A DNA stretch of 64,000 nucleotides from Fistulifera solaris (lineage: Eukaryota): contig AP026125.1 of assembly GCA_030295235.1 (NCBI GenBank), positions 124,001 through 188,000 on the forward strand, read 5' to 3'. The position numbers and the translations under genes are program-made. Each line of letters starts with the position of its first letter. The stretch's first letter is position 1. Of the stretch, positions 1 to 12,623 are shown one piece after another. Below the pieces are notes generated by a model, which was given only the letters and a program-made list of their open reading frames with translations, ran no database searches and was not told the DNA's origin.

Positions 1-150
1 TTGTAAGCTTCTCTTTTCGAACCGTATTGAACGCAGTTTCATCTTTTCTTGCATGTTGCGCCGCATCCTCCGCCATGCAACATGCAAACGATGCAACAAG
101 CAACGAACGTAAAAAAAGAATGGAAGGAACGCAGTTCAATTTTAATAATT

Positions 151-2564
151 ATGAAATCTCTTCCAGTTCTTTTACTTCCGTTCTTGCTACAAGCTACCTC
201 GGCAGAGTTATTGCGTGCTGACAAGGCAACAAACCGCGAAGGAAACGATGAAAGCGTGAAGACAGCGCGAGATTCGAAAGCACCTATCCGCAACCGACGT
301 CTTTTCAATGTATTCAACTTGCAATCGCTCTTGGATGACACGACAAAAACCGAAGAAGTCATTGATGACTCGTCATTTGAGTCGGGTCGTAGCTACTTCA
401 ACCTTTTCACCAACATTTTTACTGGCGAACGTGAACCGAGTGAGTCACCCGCGAACGAAAAGCCTGCGAATGAGAAGCCGCCCGCGGACAGCAAAGAGGA
501 GGAGAAAGAAGAAGAAGTCGTGCCGAAAGTAGAAGACACGACTCTGGCTCCGACGCGCGCCCCTGTGGAGAAACAGACAGTTCAGCCGGTCACCGCCGAG
601 AAGGTAAAGGAAACAGCGAAAAACTTTCTGGAAACGTATACCGGAGGTTGGGTGCCCAAACCGGAAGGAACCTATTCGGAAATCTTCTTGAGTGTGTTTG
701 CTGCTCGTACGGTGAATCCTACAATCTCGCCGGCTCCTACGATGTCTCCTGCCCCGAGCGCTGTGCCCACAATTCTTCCGGTTGCTGGTACGGAAGGACC
801 CACAACAACTGTATTCCCTACGACTGGACCCACAACCGCTCCTTCTTTGATTCCATCTTCGCAAATTCAAACAGTTCCCCCATCCGTCTCAGTCCCTCCG
901 TCACTCGCGCCGAATGATTTAAGCGGTGCACCGACTTCGAGCTTTTCCCCGACTTCGAGCCAATTGCCTACGTTAGTAGGAACTGGAAGCGAGGATCCAA
1001 CTCTTTCGCAAGTACCGACAAGCCTTTCGCCTTCGACATCTTTGGCGCCTTCTCTGGTGCCAAGTTCGAATATCATTGCCTCGATTAAGCCTTCCGTGTC
1101 GGCAGCTCCTTCCATTACCGCGCTGCCATCCGCATCGAGAGCACCTTCGTCAACTGCACAGCCTTCTGGATCGGTGCAGCCTTCTCGATCATCACCTCCG
1201 ACTGTTTCGGAATCTCCTTCCGTGTTGCCCACAAGCAACAGTACTATAAGTGTTCCCCCTAGTTCGGGTCCCACTACGACAATTGCTCCCTCTCTCGCTC
1301 GTGTCGAAGGAGGCTTTACGACCGAACTCAATCTGGATCAAGTGCCCGAAGCATATCGACAAGTGTTTACTGACGCCGCTGCGCGGTGGGATACAGTCAT
1401 CGTGGGCGACTTACAGGACTTTGTCATGACCGAAGCCGACCGCGCTACGGCAGGGTCACGTTGTGATGCTTCCACGATACCTGATGTTATCGATGATGTG
1501 TTTATTTGTTCCAGCCTTCCCAGCATAGACGGCGCCGTGGGAATCCTCGGTTCAGCCGGCCCTCTATTAGGTTTGTTTTGATTGAAGAGATTGCTTTGTT
1601 TTGTTGTGTTGAACAGCGAAAATTTTCGCTCGATTTTTCCTCTTTTTAGCTCCAAACTCATTTTTATTCGTTCTTCGCAGCTCGAAGTGGAGAAATCTTG
1701 CAGACATCTGTCGGATATATGCAGTTTGATTTGGCAGACATCGATATTTTGAATGAAAATGGTCAACTTGCCGGGACAATTGTAAGTTCGACCTTAGATT
1801 TTCTGTCTTAACCCTAACCCTAATTTGTTTTGCAGTGACTTCTTTGTCGTAACCCCTAACCCTAACTCACCGATCATTTTTCCACTTTGTTCAGCTCCAT
1901 GAGATGGCACATGTGGTGAGTAGTCTCAATTCAAGTTCATGACTTTCCTGTCGCAACATATTTGTCTCACTTCAGCGGCTATTGCGTCGTATTCCTTCTG
2001 CAGTACGGCATCGGTACGCTATGGGGACCCAACTCTTTGGTAGAAAACAACGACATTTGTGCGTATCGCTACGATTCTAAGGCTAGTGAAGAGTATCGTG
2101 CCTTGAGTGGATGCGACGGAGCTGTTCCCATTGAAACTGACGGAGCCGAGGGAACGAAATGCTTGCATTGGGATGAAGATTGCTTTCAATCCGAACTCAT
2201 GACGGGTGTCAATACAGGTAGCCAAGAACTCTCACGCATCACCGTAGCGGGCTTGGAGGATTTAAGTTACACGGTAGATTACAGTCAAGCTACGCCTTAC
2301 CCGTCGTCTCTGTTGGCGCCCAGTTGCAACTGCAATGCGAATCGCAACTTGAACGAGGATGTTTTCTTCAATGAGCGACGACAATTACAGACAGAAACTA
2401 CCACAGCGGCGAGATTGAATGCGATCGATTATGGACGTTCCCAGCTGCGATCGTTTCGAGCTGCTGCTTTGGGCGGCAACTCTGTATACTTAGGTGACAA
2501 GGTGATTGTTGTGTTGTATTGGGATGATGGGGTAAAGTCCGTCGTTGTTCGGTCTGATACCTAA
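151..2564 (+). CDS. Secreted leishmanolysin/M8-like zinc metalloprotease with Pro/Thr/Ser-rich stalk (copy 1)
   Basis: Signal peptide MKSLPVLLLPFLLQATSA. Exons inferred from GT-AG sites: 151-1570, 1681-1781, 1895-1915 (LHEMAHV), 2004-2564. Spliced motif HEMAHVYGIG, then CLHWDEDCFQSELMTG (third His and Met-turn). Confidence 0.85.
1809..1866. repeat. Short telomere-like CCCTAA tracts in intron 2 of copy 1
   Basis: taaccctaaccctaa (1809-1823) and taacccctaaccctaac (1850-1866). Confidence 0.55.
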
Positions 2565-3026
2565 TGTGTGACTGAAAGAGTTACAGAATACATAGGTAGA
2601 ATAGTGATATTTGTTTTCAGGTTTCTATTGCATTTGCTTCGTCAAATAATTGTGTCTTCGTTTTCATTTATTACTGAGTAAAAAATACTCTACTCCGAGT
2701 AAAAGGTTATACAACTATACAACGGGTCGCTTCACTCGGGACTCGACTAATTACCTGTTCAACACCAAAGCTACTGTAGGGTGTATTGTACTATATCCTT
2801 GTACAGCTGTCAAGCATAATGTGAGCCATGTGTCTTACCGCTATCACCAATGTACATTATATCATAGAGTCCCGAAGTGGATGCCGTTGCGCGGTTTGAA
2901 TTTTTTTGGCGGAACGCCTTGCCTTCACATTTTGGAAGTTGAAAGCCTCGGCTTTTTCATCCTTGATCGCGAAAGAACCGAACGCCACCTGCAATAATTG
3001 CCAATGAGAACAGAATCATAGCCAAG

Positions 3027-5181
3027 ATGAATACTAAGAGCGCCCTACTTATCCTTTCTGCTCTTACGACTATGTCGTCGGTATCTGCTAAGACCACAAG
3101 ACGAAGCGGCTATACGGTGCAACGCGGAGAGAACGATTCCGCTCGCCGAAGGCAGCTGAAGAAATCCAAATCGCATTCGGTCGATAAAGAACACAAGTCA
3201 GATTTAAAATCGAGTTCACGGCCAAGTGTAGTGCCAACACAGGCACCTGTCGCAACTCAACCTGTAGCGCCTTCTCCACAATCAACGTCGAAATCGAAGA
3301 AGCTTGATGATCGTCATGAGTTAGGCAAGGGCAAAAAGCGAAAGGTACCGAAACAAGAAAGCTCTAAATCGAAAAAACTAGACGATCGAGAAGAGTTGGA
3401 CAAAAATAAAAAGAAGAAGAAATCACGCAAAAAGTCTAAAGAATGCCAGAGTTTAGAGGAAGAAGACGAACCGACAACATCGCCCACTTCTTCACCGAAA
3501 AAGAAATCCAAGTCGCATTCAAAAGAAAAAGGCAGAGGTAAAGCTTCGTCTCCTGTAACATCGCCAACGCAACAACCTTCCAAAGGCCTTTATTACGTGG
3601 GTAAGCGAGAGAAGTTGAGCAAGGATTACCCAGAGACGGATTGTGTTACATCTACGACAAGTCCAGTGACATCGCCAGTATCTACATCGAGCCCGTTGGC
3701 ATCTTCAGTCATTACATCAAGCCCACTGGCGTCTTCTGTGACAACACCCAGTTCTCTCCATCCGCCTACGAGCAGTCCAACTGCTCTCAAAACCGCAGCA
3801 CCTACGGCTCCTCCGCAACCCGACACTGCGCCTCCTACTCTATCCCCAATCAAATCACCGACACGAGCTCCCAATCCTCCTCCTGTAAAGCCTCCAGTGA
3901 CACCTCCTGTGCCGCGCCCTGTTCCACGACCCGTAGCTCCTCCTGTACCGAGACCTGTGCCTCGTCCGGTGGCTCCTCCCGTTCCACGCCCTGTGGCACC
4001 TCCTCCAATCACCGCCGGAGAGTTTGAAACGACTCTAAATCTAGACCAAGTACCTGATCGTTTCAGATCAGCATTCATTAATTCCGCAACAATATGGGAC
4101 AACGTCATTGTTGGAGATATGTCGGACTTTGTGGTGGACGCTTCTGTACTGAACAGCCCGAATTTGAATTGCGATACGTCGACGTTGCCGGACGTAATTG
4201 ACGACATTTTCATTTGTGCTTCGGTCCAGCCGATCGACGGGCCGGACTCCATCCTGGGGACAGCCGGGCCCACATTTTTCCGCTTTGAAGATACGATTAC
4301 TTCTACAATTGGCTTTATGAATTTCGATGAAGCTGACATGGATCTTCAGCGGGAAGAAGGCACTTTACAAGGCTTGATTGTAAGTTTCTCGACATTCAGG
4401 TGTATTGTTGTGCTCTCAAACAATATTCTAACACTCTGTTCTTTTAACAAACTGTTAGCTTCACGAAATGGCCCACGTCGTAAGTTGCAGATAGCGTGTC
4501 CAACTCATTCCTTTACATACTATCATTTCTCACTCGATTTTTCCTTTTAAAATCCAGTATGGATTCGGCACATTGTGGGACTTGAATGGCCTTGCCGCGG
4601 CAACAGCTCCGTGTCCATACAAATCGGATTCTCGTGCGAGTGAAGAATATCGAAAACTAAGTGGCTGCGATGCCTCCATCCCTGTCGAACAAGAATTTGG
4701 TGCCGGAACGGCATGTTTGCACTGGGATGAGACTTGTTTCATGGGTGAACTCATGACAGGTTCCAGTTCCGATGGCTTGGAGTTGTCCCGTTTCACAATA
4801 GCTTCTTTAGAAGACCTGGGCTATACAGTCGATTACTCGAAAGCGACTGCCTTTGATACTTCCCAAATGAGTCCGAGTTGCGTCTGCAACAATCGGAGAC
4901 AGTTGAGAGGTAGCCACGACCGTGGTATTTTCTCGTATCAAAACGTAGGCAACGTTCCACAATGGGCATCGGACGCGCAGCTTCGATCGCACAAGCCCCC
5001 ACTCAGCGAAGAGGGAAATCGAATTGCCCGAGCGCACGGTTTATCCATTTTAAACGCCAACCATGAGTGGAAAAAAGCGTATTTGAGGGACGACTTGGCG
5101 GAGCACTATGTCGGTGATCAAATCATCGTTGTCCTTTACATGGAAAATGGGTATAAATACTCTGTGATGGTGAAGAGGTAG
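3027..5181 (+). CDS. Secreted M8-like metalloprotease with Lys/Ser-rich and Pro-rich (PVPRPVAP) N-terminus (copy 2)
   Basis: Signal peptide, RRRQL. Exons 3027-4379, 4459-4479 (LHEMAHV), 4558-5181. HEMAHVYGFG and CLHWDETCFMGELMTG. Confidence 0.85.
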
Positions 5182-5673
5182 TAGATGCCATGATGTCACC
5201 TGTAAATTCCTAGCTTTTTTCGTTTTTGCGAATCAACCGTAGCTGCCTTTGAAGCAGCTTCTCATGCGACAAACACAAAATACAGCTAAAACGTAGTAAG
5301 CAAGAATGCATTACCGAGAAATAAGTCGTCGGTTTCTCTAACCATAGACTGCATGCCTATTATTATTTGTCATCGCATGCATTTTTCTTCGATCCACCGC
5401 CGCCTTTCGTCTTGCGTGAAGTTGCAGTCACGCGTCATTTGTCATTGTTGAGTCACGTGTCGAAACAGGGCGCGCGCTAGGAGCGAATGGTTGTGTACTC
5501 TGTAGCCCAGTTTCGAGTACCGGTTTTCGTTGTGGCGAATTTTTGGCCGTAACGGCTCACTTTTTGGCGCAAAACAAAAACCTCGTCACAAACATCCGAA
5601 GACAAAGTAAAATTCAAAAACACACGCCTTCGTCAGGAACAGGTATCTTGTTCTTGTGATTTAAATAACAAAC

Positions 5674-7917
5674 ATGAAGGCCGAGCAACTTTTATCAGTT
5701 CTCTTAGCCGTGTCGAGCTTTTCCGCGGCGCAAGCCCGGCATGTGCGAGCATCACTTCGTGCTGATCGCAACCTCAACGTTCAGGTTGTCAATGACTTGA
5801 TGTACTTAAAGAAATCGACTAAAACAGACTCCACAAGTAAGAAAACAACAAGAGGGAAAGGAACGGAAACTTCGGGCAAGGGCGGAAAAGGTTCGCAAAC
5901 AACCTCCAAAACGACAAGTCAGAAAACATCCAAAGGCAAAGGGTCGGCATCTTCATCACCATCACCCACTATGCCATCTTCGGGTAAAGGCAGCGGCAAA
6001 GGCAGCGGTAAAAAGAGCTCAAAGGTTTCCATGGATGAACCCACCGCGGCTCCAACTGTGCATCCTGCTTGTTCTCCGAGTCCAATTGTGTCAATATCGA
6101 CCGAAATGCCCTTAGCAGCACCCACCGTTCCTGTACCGAGTCCGGTTGTTGTCCCCGCTCCAGTGCCTGCACCGACTCCGGTTGCTGCTCCAGTTCCTGT
6201 ACCGACTCCTGTCGTTACACCTACTGTTTCGCCTTCCGCTATTTCGGAGCCAACTGCGACACCACAAGCTGAGATTACGGATGCTCCGACAACCGCCAAT
6301 CCGACAGCAAGTCCGACGACATCTGAACCCTCTGTCACGGCTTCACCGACATCGACTGACACGGAAAGTCCAACTGCAAGTCCTACGACGCCCGAACCAT
6401 CGGTCACAGCCTCTCCTGCACCTTCACAAGCAGTGACCGGAACTCCCTCGCAAGAAGCGACTACCAGTCCCGCGCCTACAATCACTTCCTTCCCCACCAT
6501 AACAGCAGAACCTTCTTCAGCAGTTACAAGCGCACCATCACAGGACAATTCCAGCCCCGAGCCTACTTCTACTGTCGCTCCATCGCCCGCTGGAACGTCG
6601 GAACCTTCACTAGCAGTCACGGATCCTCCCTCCGTAGATAATTCGAGTCCAGAACCAACACCGGTACCAATCTCCGAATTCGACACGACGCTTGGTCTCG
6701 AACAGGTCCCCGATCGATTTCAATCGTCCTTTATTGACGCAGCGAGGATCTGGGATACGGTGATTGTCGGGGATATGCCAGACCTTGTTGTGGACAGTGA
6801 TGTCTTGAACAGCCCCAGTTTGAACTGCGATCCTTCAACATTGCCTGATGTTATCGACGATATCTTCATTTGCGCCAGTATAACACCTATTGACGGGCCC
6901 TTCGGAGTTCTTGGAACAGCCGGCAAGTCTTTTCACAGTTTGGGTTAATTTGGCTTCGTATTGACCGGCAACTCACACAACGTTTCTTTTTTGAAGGCCC
7001 TCAACTTGCTCGCTTTGGTGATACGATCACAGTTACTGTCGGCGGAATGAACTTTGATGAGGCTGACATGGACTTGCAACTCGAAGCCGGTACTTTAGAA
7101 GGCCTAATTGTACGTTGACTGATGCTTTTATGTCATTCAATAAGCTTTGTTCACTAACACAATGATACTCTTTGTTAACCGACTTGCAGTTACACGAAAT
7201 GGCACATGTGGTAAGTTTGCTGCAGCACGAACGTAATAATTCAATGAACTTGGTAGTTTCTTACACAGTCGCGTTCGCTTTCAGTACGGATTCGGTACTT
7301 TGTGGGCGTTTAACAATCTTGCTCCACAAGCGCTTCCATGTCCATACAGTTATGATTCCCGAGCCAGCGAAGAATATCGATTGCTAAGTGGGTGCGATGC
7401 TTCTATACCAGTGGAAGATGATTTCGGTGCTGGGACGCAGTGTTTGCACTGGGATGAAGATTGTTTTTTGGGTGAGCTCATGACAGGATTCAGCACGGAC
7501 GGCTTAGAGTTGTCAGTCTTAACGGTTGCCGCCCTGGATGATCTTGGCTACACGGTGGACTATTCAAGAGCGGAACCTTATGATACGTCCAAGATGAGCC
7601 CGGATTGCGTTTGTAACCGGAGAGAGCTACAAGGCACACCAGAGAAAGACATACCTGAAGTGTTTACCTACCACAACGTGGGTAAACTTCCCATATCGCA
7701 CATCAGCACAACCAGCAGTTCTAGTCTTAGGCCACCGCTCAGCGAAGAAGGAAATCGAATTGCGAGGGCTCACGGAATGGCCATCTTGGACGCAAACCAC
7801 GAGTGGAAGAACGCTTACCTCAAGGATGAGCAAGCTGATCAATATATTGGTGATCAAATAGTTGTTGTTCTTTACATGGAAAATGGCTACAAATACACAG
7901 TCATGGTGACAAGATAA
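5674..7917 (+). CDS. Secreted M8-like metalloprotease with KxGK-rich and PTS-rich N-terminus (copy 3)
   Basis: Exons 5674-6922, 6997-7109, 7190-7210 (LHEMAHV), 7285-7917; the first intron is GC-AG. CLHWDEDCFLGELMTG. Catalytic domain closely resembles copy 2. Confidence 0.85.
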
Positions 7918-8622
7918 CGACATGTCTATACGCGTGAACGAAAGCGTGCTAAGAGTCATAGAATCATAATCGCAGACCGAGGTCGCACTTGTGAAATAGT
8001 TTGTTATTAAATGGAAGGGCGTCTTTTGTGGAGGAAGGGAGTTTGTTATTGTTATTTACATGAAATCGGGAACTCCTTCAAAGCAAATATAGAATTCCAA
8101 TGTAGCGCAAACCTCTCAGAATTAGTTTGATAATGGTTAGTTTGAATGAGGGGGCCCTAGGTGTGGCATTTTTTCCGCATTTGACCGGAAGGACGTTAAA
8201 ATTCTGCCTCTCAGTACAAGTTCCTACGTAAAGCCTACGGCGAGGCAGAATTTTAACGTCGTTTCCCGTAACAAGAATGTGAGCACGTGCTTCCAATCTC
8301 CTCAGTAGTTTCCAGAATCTTACCGGTACACATTTATCTAATCCGCAAAACCCATTTGAAAATCAAACTAGCGGTACTGAATTGACTATACGCTCAACAA
8401 GTAAACTCAAAAATTCATCGCGGATGCGTTGAAAAGAAAAATTGCCTCACAAATTGATCGATCTTGTAGACGACCATCGGAGAGCCGGCCATAACACAGA
8501 AACGATTCAAAGCGTGCCGTTGAATAAGAACATCTTGTCTTCTGACACCCGAAACTCACGAGTTCTTTTACATTGACGATTGATATCGCAAAACCGTTAT
8601 TAAAGCCAAAGTCAGAACCACC

Positions 8623-11494
8623 ATGGTTCGTTCTATCGAAAACATAATAGTGCTGGCGACAATTGCCTTGACTGCCGCATGGGGATACGACTTGAGTCAA
8701 GATATTGGATTGGAAGGCACGAGTCGATCGTCGGTAACAAGGCCTTCGCACGAGCAACTCATTCAACAACGCCATCTACAGCAAACAGTTGCCGAGAAAG
8801 TGAAAGCGGCCATCGAGCTTGCTGCCGCCGAAGCACATGACGACGACCATACTCCCTCGCCAACGAATTCATTTGAACCCACTTATCAAAGCGGCAAAGG
8901 AGAGACGAGTGCAAAAGCCAAAGGCAAGAAAAGTGGCAAGGGCAAAGGCGATTCAAGTGACAGTGACGACACTCCCTCCGACTACCCCACTTATTTGCCG
9001 ACTAGCACTGCTATTCCAACAGGCACAGCATACCCGACGACGATTGAATTGAAGAGTAAGAAAAGTGGCAAAGGAGAGACGAGTGCGAAGAACAAAGGCA
9101 AGAAGAGTGGGAAGGGTAAAGGCAATTCTTCAAGTGACAGCAATGAGACTCCGTCGGATTACCCCACCTTTGTGCCTACGAGCTCAGCTATCCCGACAGG
9201 AACAGCATACCCGACAACCGAATTGAAAAGTAAGAAAAGCGGCAAAAAGGTGAAAACAGTGCCAAAACAAAAGGCAAGAAGAGTGGCAAGGGCAAAGGCA
9301 ATTCTTCAAGTGACAGCGAGGACACTCCCTCCGACTACCCCACTTATTTGCCGACTAGCTCAGCTATCCCGACAGGAACAGCATACCCGACTACTGAGTT
9401 GAAAAGTAAAAAGAGCGGCAAGGGTGAAAATAGCGCGAAAGCCAAAGGCAAGAAGAGTGGAAAGGGCAAGGGCGAATCGAGTGACAGCGACGACACCCCT
9501 CCGACTTCCCCACTTTTTTGCCCACTCTTCTGCCTACTAGCTCAGCTATGCCAACAGGCACAGCATATCCGACGACTGAGTTGAAAAGTAAGAAAGGCGG
9601 CAAAGGCGAAAGAAGTGGCAAGGGCAAAGGCGAAAAAAGTGGAAAAGGTAAGGGTAAGGGTGATTCAAGTAGCAAGGGCAAAGGTGAAAAAAGCGACAAG
9701 TCAGGCAAGGGTGAGAAAAGCGGAAAAGGTCAAATGAGCAAGTCGAGTAAATCAAGCAAATCAAGCAAGAAGTCTTCGAAAAGAGTGCCTCGCCGGCTCC
9801 TTCACTAAGCCCAACGGCAATTTCCACTGAAACAGAAGGTCCGTCAATATCATTGAGCCCAACGACGTCTCCCAGTGTGTCAGCAAGCCCTTCGGTAATC
9901 TCTCCGTCTACTCTTCCATCAGTCGCGCGAACTTTTGCACCGTCTGAGGTTGTGTCAACTTCCCCCTCATCTCAGATTGTCGAAACTGCCAGTCCCGCTC
10001 CAACAGAGGAAGAAACCATAACGTCAGCTCCCACTGCCGCTCCTAGTATCGGTACACAGAGTCCAAGCGCTGACACCCAAAGTCCGAGCTCAACACCGGG
10101 TCCAAGCACCGACACGCAGAATCCAAGTGCCGCGACCGAAAGTCCGAGCTTAACTATAAGTGAGGCACCCTCAGCTGACACGCAGAGTCCTAGCGTTTCT
10201 GCTGAACCCACCACCACCGTAGTTCCTACAGCTGTCCCCACTACAACAGTCAGCCCAAGTGGTACGCCTTCGGAATTTCCATCCATCATTCCTACCGTAT
10301 TTCCAGAGTGAGATTCCATCAACTGAACCTTCGGCCGATGATGGTAATTTGAGGGAAGCCAGTTTTGAGACAACCCTTGATTTATTCAATGTAGATGAGA
10401 GGTATCAGGATGCGTTTATTGTGGCTGCCGATCGATGGGGATCGATTATTGTTGGAGATCTGCCTGGTCTTTCCGTGACGGACGATACACGAGATGGTGT
10501 GTCATGCGAAAGTTTGCCTGACACGATCGACGATATCTTTATCTGCGCCACGGTGGGCGACATTGATGCTATCAGCGGAGTGCTGGGCTATTCGCAACCG
10601 GAATATGGGGTAAGGCTGGATGGTAAAATCATTCCTGTTATTGGGAGTATGACTCTTGATAGTGCTGATATTGATGATTTGATTGATTCGTCACTTCTCG
10701 AGTCTGTTATTGTAAGTATAGAAGACAAAAGCAGTCACTTCTGATACCATCATGATCTCACCTGGAATTTCGCCCTCCTTTATCAATGAAGACGCACGAA
10801 ATGGGTCGAATTGTAAGTGTCATTTTGGCTGCGTGCCTTATACTTGCTGCAATAATTACGATGACTGACATGCCGTTTGTCTTTTCAGTATGGAATCGGT
10901 TCCTTGTGGACGATGAATGGATTAGTCAAAGAGACCGACTTTTCGTCGTGCTCTTATGCTGCTTCCTCGAAAGCCACGGCTGAATACCAGGAGCTGAGTG
11001 GATGCGACAAGCCCATTCCACTCGAAGGCTGTGGCTTCACGGACAAGACATGTTTCAAAAAGGAAGTCATGACGGGCTACGAAGGGGGTAAAGTTGTGTT
11101 GTCGAGAATGACCGTGGCTTCCTTGGAAGACATGGGATACACCGTCAAGTACGATGCCGCGGATGACTACGGTGTCGAAGATATGGACCCCAGTTGCGTG
11201 TGCGCGACGACATCGACGATTACAATCGGTGATGTCGGCATCACAAAAGTTGAGCGCAACAGACCGACGGTGCGAAAGCTCGGAACGGGCAAATTTGAAT
11301 CGAACCATGCGCATTTAAGTCTCAGTGGTCGCTTGGAGGCAGAAGCTTTCGGTTTGGAACTCTTGAAAGCGGCCAAGCGGCGGAAAAAGTATGTCATTGA
11401 GCGTGAAGGATTTGTCTTCCTCGCGGACCAAGTGGTCTCTGTACTGTATAAGGAAAAAGGACAAATATACGGCGTCGAAGTTCGAAGCGAATAG
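8623..11494 (+). CDS. M8-like protein, probably catalytically inactive, with Lys/Gly/Ser-rich tandem repeats (copy 4; frameshifts in this sequence)
   Basis: Signal peptide and QRHL. Exons 8623-10711 (several frameshifts), 10792-10812 (THEMGRI), 10889-11494 (YGIGSLW...EVMTG). The HW motif is absent. Confidence 0.75.
8889..9600 (+). repeat. About four coding tandem repeats of ~175-180 nt
   Basis: Unit KSGKGETSAKAKGKKSGKGKGDSSDSDDTPSDYPTYLPTSxAIPTGTAYPTTELKSK recurs near 8889, 9061, 9236 and 9411, with a partial unit at 9593. Confidence 0.9.
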
Positions 11495-11888
11495 AAATGC
11501 TTCGGCACCGCCATTTTTGTCTATAATTGTGTAGCGCAACTGTAAATGTAATCACCAGCTATTTGTGAAATTATTTGTCATATGTATTGTATCATTCAAA
11601 ACGCCCTATACACAGTGATCATTGAGAGGCTAGCTAAAATGTGTTTGATTACACTACTTAGGACAGCTACGAATAGACTGATAAACGTCAAGCAAACGTT
11701 CCTCCAAAACAAAGAAGAGTCAACCTTCTTGCTTCACTTAAGACGATCGTTTCATAGGTTGCTAGTCATCTATTCATGACGTCAAAATTCTTCAATTCAG
11801 TTGAAAACAGTCTCCTATCGTCGGCGTCTTCTTAGAAAAAAAAAGTCTCTCTTTCGAGTCGTACTACTACATCTGACATTTTCCGTCA

Positions 11889-12623
11889 TTATCGCATCCC
11901 AGTTTCGGGCGACACATCCTCCCGCTCTTCATTCTCATCTACCACCGTCTCGGCGACCGTATCACCGTCTTCTTCCCACATCACCGGCCGTTGTCGTCTC
12001 CGTGGTGGAGGTGGCGGCGGAGGAACTGTCGTTGACAACCACATGAGAAGACACGCATTGATAAACCAAGTGACGGAAGAAAGAATCGAAAAGGCCCAAA
12101 TCCAGGACCGATTCTGACAAAAGAAATCATAATCCGTCGTGTTTTCTTCTTCTTCTTGCGGTGCCAGTGTCGTGTTGGTATCCGCGTTGTTGCTAGTATC
12201 CGTCGTTTCGTTACACACGGTCGTCAAGGCAATCACAAAGACCGACCACATCATGACACCACTGCACACAAACGACAAGAGGGACGAAGTTAAGAGCGCC
12301 GTCGAGGTCGGTTGTTGTTGTCGATACAATTCGTTCGTTTGTTTCACCCAACACGTCGAACACGTATATAAAATGACTATCGTAAGACCCAAGACGGTGG
12401 CAAAGAAATCAAACGACAGAAACGTCATGCTGAACGACAAAAGGTGAGTCCCTGACACGCGTGGATGGTGCGTTTCCGGCGTTGGCGTTGCAATGATCCG
12501 GGGAGTCTGTGGTATATTTGCGTCGTTGAAGATAGAAGAGGATCGTGGATAGAAATAAACATAGAAAAGTTGTGTAGAAAAAAGAAGAAGGATGTGCATG
12601 AGAAGCGAAGACTGAATTCGCAA
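11889..12623 (-). CDS. Hypothetical multi-pass membrane protein
   Basis: 244-aa ORF with 3-4 hydrophobic segments, an N-glycosylation-rich loop and a poly-Pro/acidic tail. Start uncertain. Confidence 0.5.
   Translation of the reverse strand: MRIQSSLLMHILLLFSTQLFYVYFYPRSSSIFNDANIPQTPRIIATPTPETHHPRVSGTHLLSFSMTFLSFDFFATVLGLTIVILYTCSTCWVKQTNELYRQQQPTSTALLTSSLLSFVCSGVMMWSVFVIALTTVCNETTDTSNNADTNTTLAPQEEEENTTDYDFFCQNRSWIWAFSILSSVTWFINACLLMWLSTTVPPPPPPPRRRQRPVMWEEDGDTVAETVVDENEEREDVSPETGMR

What the first reader, a model, noticed from the sequence alone, without database searches (positions are those of the whole stretch)
1895..10812. HExxH zinc site encoded by a 21-nt symmetric micro-exon in all four paralogues
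Seen: AG|21 nt|GT exons at 1895-1915, 4459-4479 and 7190-7210 (all LHEMAHV) and 10792-10812 (THEMGRI), each flanked by phase-0 introns and easily missed by ORF callers. Inference: skipping would delete exactly the active-site helix in frame, a potential splicing on/off switch; gene predictors may also miss the exon and hide the family.
Basis: partly seen in the sequence, partly recalled or inferred. Interest (0 to 1): 0.8.

Follow-up and report, generated by a model that had tools for sequence, protein, structure and literature searches.

The report
Protease zinc motif on 21-base exon
Four neighbouring diatom genes for secreted leishmanolysin-like metalloproteases carry their zinc-binding motif on a real, old 21-base exon that is spliced into the transcripts seen, and nothing shows it is used as an on/off switch.

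Summary
Four tandem + strand genes (151-2564, 3027-5181, 5674-7917, 8623-11494) each have a 21-nt exon between two phase-0 GT..AG introns. It encodes LHEMAHV in genes 1-3 and THEMGRI in gene 4. Spliced contigs of three public runs contain the exon in genes 1 and 3, and its upstream junction in gene 4. Gene 2 was not covered, and no skipping joint was reported.

The proteins are M8 (leishmanolysin-like) metzincins. The closest public protein, from Fistulifera solaris, already includes the motif twice, so eukaryotic annotation did not miss it.

The same 21-nt exon occurs in metagenome relatives, so it predates the duplications. In one relative it is split 13+8 nt, in another probably 19+2 nt.

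Gene 4 has lost the second and third zinc histidines and is probably an inactive paralogue.

Skipping would be in frame, but the switch idea has no support: only inclusion was seen, and the flanking introns are not conserved between the paralogues. My reading is a constitutive micro-exon, a gene-structure curiosity in a known family. Interest is modest.

The parts
151..1570 (+). gene 1 exon 1: signal peptide, Ser/Thr/Pro-rich linker, N-terminal part of the catalytic domain
   Evidence: open frame from ATG 151; donor GTTTGT at 1571
1681..1781 (+). gene 1 exon 2
   Evidence: frame and homology to P0001; joint 1781>1895 in X3 and X4
1895..1915 (+). gene 1 micro-exon, 21 nt, LHEMAHV
   Evidence: both junctions seen in contigs of X3 and X4
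2004..2564 (+). gene 1 last exon: third His codon 2166-2168, Met-turn ELMTG 2193-2207, C-terminal domain, stop
   Evidence: Pfam PF01457 22.3 bits
3027..4379 (+). gene 2 exon 1
   Evidence: 77% identity to P0001 residues 1-282
4459..4479 (+). gene 2 micro-exon, 21 nt, LHEMAHV
   Evidence: no transcript cover; the 95%-identical public model P0001 includes the motif
4558..5181 (+). gene 2 last exon: third His 4720-4722, ELMTG 4747-4761
5674..6922 (+). gene 3 exon 1, followed by a GC..AG intron at 6923-6996
   Evidence: joint 6921>6996 (can shift by up to 3) in X2 and X4
6997..7109 (+). gene 3 exon 2
7190..7210 (+). gene 3 micro-exon, 21 nt, LHEMAHV
   Evidence: X2 contig carries its letters between 7113 and 7284, and X4 has a loose end reading into it
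7285..7917 (+). gene 3 last exon: third His 7447-7449, ELMTG 7474-7488
8623..10711 (+). gene 4 exon 1; as written in the window it has frame shifts in a repetitive Lys/Gly/Ser-rich part
   Evidence: one open frame of 697 aa if 4 of the 5 single-base differences shown by X1 contigs are taken; X2 contigs cover parts of it
10792..10812 (+). gene 4 micro-exon, 21 nt, THEMGRI (second zinc His replaced by Arg)
   Evidence: X2 loose end at 10711 reads its first 15 letters
10889..11494 (+). gene 4 last exon; F in place of the third zinc His, EVMTG retained
   Evidence: no Pfam hit at E<=1

Best explanation
The window holds a tandem array of four diatom genes for secreted M8 (leishmanolysin-like) metzincin proteases. 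The closest named relative is from Fistulifera solaris. In the common ancestor of these genes, two phase-0 introns lay 21 nt apart. That left the core of the active-site helix (x-H-E-x-x-H-x) on its own micro-exon.

The introns are short (74-113 nt) and have ordinary GT..AG ends. The splice sites are therefore most likely paired across each intron, with the two introns removed one after the other, so the 21-nt exon is included by default. Intron definition and sequential removal are inferred, not shown.

Inclusion is needed for an active enzyme, because the exon supplies two zinc ligands and the catalytic Glu. The third His and the Met-turn lie in the last exon. Gene 4 keeps the same exon structure but has lost two of the three zinc histidines, so it is probably a transcribed, non-catalytic paralogue.

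Shown: the exon structure, its inclusion in transcripts of genes 1 and 3 (gene 4 in part), family membership, and conservation of the structure in relatives. Inferred: that inclusion is constitutive, the order and mode of splicing, secretion, and enzymatic activity.
For: - Sequence and frames.
- Spliced contigs with the micro-exon for genes 1, 3 and (upstream junction only) 4, in runs X2-X4. None of these joints appear in the DNA-like run X1.
- All codon differences in the micro-exon among genes 1-3 are synonymous.
- Retaining any of the 8 modelled introns of genes 1-3 gives a premature stop.
- M8 membership: Pfam PF01457 at 22-30 bits for three last exons and 81.8 bits for P0001. Alignment to leishmanolysin 1LML matches HEMAH, the third His and the Met-turn. 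The AlphaFold model of the Seminavis robusta relative P0044 puts HEMAH 171-175 in helix 166-177, and its best PDB match is 1LML at E 2.3e-8.
- Age of the structure: the same 21-nt exon at the same place in metagenome locus L001. A 21-nt exon with a degenerate sequence in L018-L022. The same 21 nt split 13+8 in L005 and 19+2 in L002-L004. All modelled introns there are GT..AG and in frame.
- The public F. solaris model P0001 includes the motif in both halves.
Against: - Gene 2's micro-exon has no transcript cover.
- For gene 4 only the upstream junction was seen.
- The runs X2-X4 are labelled RNA only as a guess. They come from one study and are assembled contigs, which drop rare isoforms, so a minor or condition-specific skipped form is not excluded.
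- No raw reads, no conditions and no quantification were available.
- The structure was modelled on a relative (P0044), not on the window's own spliced proteins, which could not be handed to the tool.
- The organisms of the metagenome loci are unknown, and their gene models rest on sequence and homology alone.
Confidence: 0.8

Rival explanations
1. Regulated cassette micro-exon. Under some conditions the donor of the upstream intron is joined to the acceptor of the downstream intron. This yields an in-frame secreted protein without the zinc site, so the protease is switched off or turned into a decoy.
For: - Skipping keeps the frame in genes 1-3.
- The combined skipped span would be only 175-222 nt, computed from the coordinates.
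- Exon skipping as well as intron retention is reported for the diatom Phaeodactylum tricornutum (PMC5859163, passages read).
- Contigs cannot show that a rare form is absent.
Against: - No skipping joint in any of the 4 runs laid, while inclusion was seen for 3 of the 4 genes.
- No conserved intronic sequence flanks the exon among the paralogues.
- Relatives have lost one or the other intron, or placed introns elsewhere in the same nine codons. That fits neutral intron turnover better than a conserved regulatory cassette.
- A dead paralogue already exists through substitutions.
Confidence: 0.08
2. The coding stretch for the active-site helix is a favoured place for introns in this family, either as an intron-gain or sliding hot spot or through selection. 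One possible selective reason is that unspliced or partly spliced messages then cannot give an active secreted protease. On this reading the micro-exon is a by-product.
For: - All 8 modelled introns of genes 1-3 and both modelled introns of gene 4 lie within about 430 nt around the motif. The rest of each roughly 2 kb coding region has none.
- In eukaryote-like metagenome relatives I count 8 different intron positions within the nine codons around HExxH.
- Intron 1 of gene 1 and intron 1 of gene 3 lie 12 nt apart at homologous places, and gene 2 lacks that intron.
- Every intron retention gives a premature stop.
Against: - There is no control for intron density elsewhere in those relatives.
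- The long N-terminal linkers are fast-evolving low-complexity sequence and may simply be young.
- The introns share no sequence with each other or with the rest of the window, so there is no sign of a mobile intron family.
- The loci were chosen by similarity to this very region.
Confidence: 0.1
3. The micro-exons are not used. The genes are pseudogenes or are read differently, and the AG/GT flanks are fortuitous.
For: Gene 4 as written in the window has frame shifts.
Against: - Spliced contigs contain the exon.
- There is no open frame without it.
- All differences within the exon are synonymous.
- The public model P0001 includes it.
- Gene 4's exon 1 becomes one open frame with 4 single-base differences that DNA contigs of X1 show.
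Confidence: 0.01

Closest known systems
Leishmanolysin / GP63 (MEROPS family M8, Pfam PF01457; structure 1LML)
   Same: - HEMAH motif in the active-site helix, followed by x-G-F/I-G.
- A third zinc His about 60 residues further on, followed by a Met-turn (E-L-M).
- Sequence match to 1LML at E 2.2e-5.
- Pfam score above the cut-off.
- 1LML is the best fold match of the model of the relative P0044.
   Different: - The conserved domain is much shorter, about 330 aa against 478 in the 1LML chain, and TM-scores are only 0.40-0.45.
- It has its own conserved C-terminal helix-plus-sheet module.
- A long Ser/Thr/Pro- or Lys/Gly/Ser-rich linker lies between the signal peptide and the domain.
- These are free-living diatom genes, and no role in parasitism is implied.
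- Gene 4 lacks two of the three zinc histidines.
Fistulifera solaris FisN_11Lh317, 'leishmanolysin-like peptidase' (P0001)
   Same: - 95% identical to the last exon of gene 2 and 88% to that of gene 3.
- It contains the micro-exon residues directly before YGFGTLW in both halves.
   Different: - It is one 1324-aa model that runs gene 2 and gene 3 together. In the window gene 2 ends in a stop and gene 3 starts with its own signal peptide, so the fusion is probably an annotation artefact.
- The N-terminal linker is only 77% identical. The window is therefore a diverged second copy or a close relative. That F. solaris is allodiploid is recalled, not checked.
Micro-exons of animals and plants (exons of about 3-30 nt)
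   Same: A very short symmetric exon that is easily missed by aligners and gene callers and that encodes a few residues in a functional site.
   Different: - Regulated animal micro-exons are typically alternative, with conserved flanking intron sequence (recalled). Here only inclusion was seen, and the flanks are not conserved among the paralogues.
- The flanking introns here are very short (74-113 nt).
- I found no paper on micro-exons in diatoms (1 paper held both terms, and it was unrelated) or on an HExxH micro-exon (none of the 15 listed papers held 'micro-exon').
Bacterial M8-like peptidases (intronless homologues in metagenomes)
   Same: The same HEMGHVLGIG...H...M core. It is contiguous in 51 of the 79 loci fetched, and 33 of those have G+C of 0.55 or more.
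   Different: They have no introns. Many match the query only over residues 2-99 to 2-130 and lack the diatom-type C-terminal module.

Membership tests
Peptidase M8 (leishmanolysin-like metzincin) | HExxH in the active-site helix (two zinc ligands and the catalytic Glu) | tested here: met
   Genes 1-3 have HEMAH on the micro-exon, which aligns to HEMAH of 1LML through P0001. NOT met in gene 4, which has HEMGR.
Peptidase M8 (leishmanolysin-like metzincin) | Third zinc His far downstream of HExxH, after an insertion | tested here: met
   His at aa 569, 513 and 516 of genes 1-3, 60 residues after the first His. It aligns with the corresponding His of 1LML. Gene 4 has F there.
Peptidase M8 (leishmanolysin-like metzincin) | Met-turn after the third His | tested here: met
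   ELMTG in genes 1-3 and EVMTG in gene 4. The Met is invariant in alignment A1 and aligns to ELMAP of 1LML.
Peptidase M8 (leishmanolysin-like metzincin) | Pfam PF01457 above the gathering score | tested here: met
   22.3, 29.4 and 29.8 bits for the last exons of genes 1-3 (cut-off 21). No hit for gene 4's last exon or for the two upstream exon pieces tested. P0001 scores 81.8 bits.
Peptidase M8 (leishmanolysin-like metzincin) | Leishmanolysin-like fold | tested here: met
   Tested on the relative P0044, not on the window's own proteins. Model pLDDT is 77.3. Foldseek rank 1 is 1LML (E 2.3e-8, prob 1.00, TM 0.45/0.40), the only match at E<=0.001. Next come MMPs and astacins at E>=7e-3.
Peptidase M8 (leishmanolysin-like metzincin) | Zinc binding and endopeptidase activity | not testable with these tools
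   Needs expression and an assay.
Micro-exon (very short exon present in mature mRNA) | Length of 30 nt or less with canonical splice sites on both sides | tested here: met
   21 nt, with AG before and GT(A/G)AGT after, in all four genes.
Micro-exon (very short exon present in mature mRNA) | Seen joined to both neighbouring exons in transcripts | tested here: met
   Genes 1 and 3: both sides seen. Gene 4: upstream side only. Gene 2: no cover. The runs are contigs labelled RNA only as a guess, but they lack the introns that X1 holds.
Alternative (cassette) micro-exon used as a switch | Both included and skipped forms exist | tested here: inconclusive
   Only inclusion was seen in 3 runs from one study. 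Contigs drop rare forms.
Alternative (cassette) micro-exon used as a switch | Conserved regulatory sequence in the flanking introns | tested here: not met
   The alignment of the four paralogous regions shows conservation only in exons and splice sites. The homeologous or orthologous introns, which would be the better comparison, were not available.

The most novel reading that the evidence does not exclude
The nine codons around HExxH in this eukaryotic M8 clade attract introns. Eight positions were inferred among the relatives, and the 21-nt exon is further cut to 13+8 nt and possibly 19+2 nt. In the most novel reading, diatoms use this arrangement functionally. Either the 21-nt exon is skipped under some conditions to secrete a zinc-free decoy form, or the dense introns act as a safeguard so that only fully spliced messages can give an active secreted protease.
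Probability: 0.1. Interest if true: 0.6.

Novelty: new member of a known kind. Interest (0 to 1): 0.3.

Why it matters
As it stands this is a tidy gene-structure fact. It gives a worked example, backed by transcripts, that diatom gene models can hinge on a 21-nt exon carrying the whole catalytic motif. It also shows that ORF-style calling of eukaryotic metagenome contigs yields headless protease fragments that barely reach the Pfam threshold. That is useful for annotating diatom secretomes, where leishmanolysin-type peptidases are reported among enriched secreted proteins (PMC9054022, one passage read).

If regulated skipping were found, it would be a rare case of a splicing switch on an enzyme's metal site in a protist. 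The inferred 13-, 8- and 2-nt exons in relatives would interest people who study the lower size limit of exons, but they need RNA evidence.

Tried and rejected
- Whole genome of the window: none is held.
- RNA holders: no listed holder is on record as RNA. The three small runs were laid anyway and turned out to hold spliced contigs. Gene 2's micro-exon had no cover in them.
- A skipping joint was looked for in the joint table. None was listed, and contigs cannot show absence.
- Earlier notes of this scan: nothing for this genome, these words or this sequence.
- Long annotated relatives of gene 4: 1331 candidates, none at E<=0.001.
- Validating the split micro-exons of L002 and L005 with a matching full-length protein. 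No protein of the 151 is 70% or more identical to L001, L002, L005 or L018; only P0051 matches L006. The 'longer' search with L002's last exon gave the Seminavis robusta protein P0044 at 56% identity and nothing closer.
- A mobile intron family: the 10 introns share no more than 11-15-nt chance words with the rest of the window.
- An alternative reading of L002. Its 102-nt inner intron is open in frame, so a 123-nt exon with a 34-aa insert after HExxH is possible. I rejected it as less likely, because every relative keeps HExxH-x-x-G-x-G contiguous.
- The first query alignment for the metagenome scan was too diverse. A 12-row alignment worked.
- Literature: 'microexon' + 'diatom' gave 1 unrelated paper. 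'micro-exon' with HEXXH, zinc and active site gave 15 listed papers, none holding 'micro-exon'.


Full report
**What is in the sequence**

The first 11.5 kb of the window hold four + strand genes in tandem. A tblastn of the closest public protein against all 64 kb finds no further copy.

Genes 1-3 give single open frames with these exons:
- Gene 1: 151-1570, 1681-1781, 1895-1915, 2004-2564 (700 aa).
- Gene 2: 3027-4379, 4459-4479, 4558-5181 (665 aa).
- Gene 3: 5674-6922, 6997-7109, 7190-7210, 7285-7917 (671 aa).

Each starts with a hydrophobic signal-like N-terminus, followed by a long Ser/Thr/Pro-rich stretch and then a conserved domain of about 330 aa.

Each has AG before it and GT(A/G)AGT after it, and both neighbouring introns (74-113 nt) are phase 0. 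They encode LHEMAHV in genes 1-3. Six of the seven codons differ among these genes, and all differences are synonymous. Gene 4's exon (10792-10812) encodes THEMGRI.

The nucleotide pattern occurs 3 times (4 with the looser form) in the window and 0 times in 100 shuffles. The copies are paralogues, so this only shows that the pattern is not background noise.

**Is the exon used?**

One DNA-like run (X1, 0.91 of the sampled words) and three small runs of the same study (X2-X4) were found and laid on 1-12000. X1 covers every bin and shows none of the intron-skipping joints. X2-X4 hold spliced contigs:
- Gene 1: joints 1781>1895 and 1915>2004 (listed as 1914>2003, cut +1) in X3 and X4, 20-21 letters apart.
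- Gene 3: one X2 contig joins 7113>7284 with 16 micro-exon letters between the sides. This is the aligner's rendering of 7109>7190 and 7210>7285, because the first four exon letters resemble the intron start. X4 has a loose end at 7113 reading 18 letters into the micro-exon and beyond.
- Gene 4: an X2 contig ends at 10711 and continues with the first 15 letters of the micro-exon.
- Gene 2's micro-exon is not covered.

No joint that skips a micro-exon is listed. These are assembled contigs from one study, labelled RNA only as a guess, so they show presence, not proportions, and a rare skipped form could be lost.

**What the proteins are**

- The last exons of genes 1-3 match Pfam Peptidase_M8 just above the cut-off (22.3-29.8 bits against 21). 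Gene 4's last exon and the two upstream exon pieces tested give nothing.
- The closest public protein is a Fistulifera solaris 'leishmanolysin-like peptidase' (P0001, 95% identity to gene 2's last exon). It scores 81.8 bits.
- P0001 aligns to leishmanolysin 1LML at E 2.2e-5, with HEMAH, the third zinc His and the Met-turn in register.
- An AlphaFold model of the Seminavis robusta relative P0044 was built from a 31-row alignment (pLDDT 77.3). It puts HEMAH 171-175 in helix 166-177. Its only PDB match at E<=0.001 is 1LML (E 2.3e-8, TM 0.45/0.40), followed by MMPs and astacins.
- The family is large: 3291 cluster representatives at E<=0.001.

So genes 1-3 meet the sequence criteria of M8. The micro-exon supplies two zinc ligands and the catalytic Glu. 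The third His (codons 2166-2168, 4720-4722, 7447-7449) and the Met-turn lie in the last exon.

Gene 4 has Arg for the second His and Phe for the third. It is transcribed and spliced in the same way, so it looks like a non-catalytic paralogue. As written in the window its first exon has frame shifts. With 4 of the 5 single-base differences that X1 contigs show (at 9243, 9495, 9778 and 10306), 8623-10711 becomes one open frame of 697 aa. The shifts are therefore probably assembly errors.

**Was the exon missed by annotation?**

It was not missed in the nearest public model. P0001 contains the seven residues directly before YGFGTLW in both halves. P0001 itself seems to be two neighbouring genes run together.

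ORF-type calls do lose it. I examined 151 proteins (the best 150 representatives plus P0001):
- 40 have HExxH directly before the [YL]G[IFL]G motif.
- 22 start within 40 aa before that motif without HExxH.
- 7 have the motif deeper in the protein without an adjacent HExxH.
- 82 were not matched by my regular expression.
- At least 10 of the 151 read an intron end ('...Q') directly before the motif.

**How old is the structure?**

A metagenome scan with a 12-row alignment returned 79 loci.
- In 51 of them HExxHxxGxG is contiguous with 20 or more open codons upstream. Of these, 33 have G+C of 0.55 or more and look bacterial.
- In 5 loci the match starts too far downstream to judge (L011, L012, L043, L047, L065).
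- L056, L057 and L060 have the motif contiguous, but my view of them was cut short.

The eukaryote-like loci show these arrangements:
- L001 has the same 21-nt exon (LHEMGHV, 1738-1758) at the same place.
- L018-L022 (near-identical contigs) have a 21-nt exon there with a degenerate sequence.
- L005 has the 21 nt cut by a further intron into 13 and 8 nt. Read-through of that intron hits a stop.
- L002-L004 have it cut into 19 and, by inference, 2 nt. Here the inner 102-nt intron is open in frame, so a longer exon cannot be excluded.
- L006 and L007/L008/L058 have only the upstream intron. L039 probably has one too, a codon later.
- L010 has only the downstream intron. L009 has one 4 nt further on.
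- L014 and L036 have an intron between the G and the second H. L016/L017 have one inside the second His codon.

That makes eight inferred intron positions within nine codons. All of these models rest on sequence, frame and homology only, and the organisms are unknown.

The shared 21-nt exon in loci only 33-43% identical to the query in the last exon, and in all four paralogues, shows that the two introns predate the duplications.

**The switch idea**

The arithmetic is right. Skipping keeps the frame and removes the motif. Exon skipping does occur in diatoms (PMC5859163, passages read). Against the idea:
- Only inclusion was seen.
- The flanking introns of the four paralogues share nothing beyond their splice sites.
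- The introns come and go among relatives.
- An inactive family member arose by substitution.

With introns this short, pairing of splice sites across each intron and stepwise removal would include the exon by default. That very short exons need sequential splicing is recalled from the vertebrate literature and was not checked here.

I put constitutive inclusion at about 0.8 and a regulated switch at about 0.08. A further 0.1 goes to the idea that the clustering of introns at the active-site helix has a cause of its own. All modelled introns of the four genes lie within about 430 nt around the motif.

**Comparison and novelty**

Leishmanolysin-type peptidases in diatom secretomes are in print (PMC9054022, one passage read). 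The nearest protein is already named as such, and micro-exons are a known kind of feature. My searches found no paper on diatom micro-exons or on an HExxH micro-exon, though these cover only the held library.

I therefore file this as a new member of known kinds: a real and neat feature that is useful for annotation, of modest interest unless raw-read data reveal regulated skipping.

Noticed in passing
L005:1192-1204 and 1310-1317: In this metagenome relative the 21 nt that form the micro-exon in the window are cut by an extra GT..AG intron (105 nt, with an in-frame stop) into exons of 13 and 8 nt. The joined model is in frame and homologous. There is no RNA evidence.
   Followed up: partly
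L002:2203-2221 and 2324-2325 (same in L003, L004): The same 21 nt appear as a 19-nt exon plus an inferred 2-nt exon between two GTAAGT introns. Alternatively the 102-nt inner intron, which is open in frame, is kept as a 34-aa insert. No matching transcript or protein was found.
   Followed up: partly
L001, L002, L005, L006, L007, L009, L010, L014, L016, L018, L036, L039: Eukaryote-like relatives place introns at eight different positions within the nine codons around HExxH. No control was made for intron density elsewhere in these genes.
   Followed up: partly
window 8623-10711: Gene 4's first exon is frame-shifted in the window. DNA-like contigs of X1 differ by single bases at 9243, 9402, 9495, 9778 and 10306. 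Taking four of them (all but 9402) gives one open frame of 697 aa. These are probably homopolymer errors in a repetitive Lys/Gly/Ser-rich region.
   Followed up: yes
window 6923-6996; 1571-1680: Intron 1 of gene 3 is a GC..AG intron, supported by joints in X2 and X4. The corresponding intron of gene 1 lies 12 nt further downstream at the homologous place, and gene 2 has none.
   Followed up: partly
window 1619-1680: An X4 contig that has both micro-exon introns of gene 1 spliced out also covers position 1642 inside intron 1 (same depth 6.31, 363 letters). That molecule therefore kept at least the 3' part of intron 1 (tables 4, 5, 8). This rests on inference from contig lengths.
   Followed up: no
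P0001 (public F. solaris model) against window 3027-7917: The 1324-aa public protein runs the counterparts of gene 2 and gene 3 together through a short linker. In the window gene 2 ends in a stop and gene 3 has its own signal peptide. The fusion is probably a model artefact.
   Followed up: partly
window 1808-1866: Intron 2 of gene 1 holds two short runs of the telomere-like unit CCCTAA (about 1808-1823 and 1851-1866).
   Followed up: no
window 8189-8263: A 75-nt hairpin (28-nt arms, 89% complementary) lies between genes 3 and 4. It has about 100 times the depth of its surroundings in the DNA-like run X1 (1993 against about 20) and many loose ends, so it is a highly repeated short element. 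It occurs only once in the window.
   Followed up: partly
L001:1912-1914: This relative has TGA where all others have the conserved Trp codon of G-I-G-T-L-W. The contig has low coverage, so this may be an error or a pseudogene.
   Followed up: no
L018:2351-2371 (same in L019-L022): A relative keeps the 21-nt exon and both introns, but the exon no longer encodes HExxH (only the first His remains). This is a second, independent loss of the zinc motif with the exon structure kept.
   Followed up: partly
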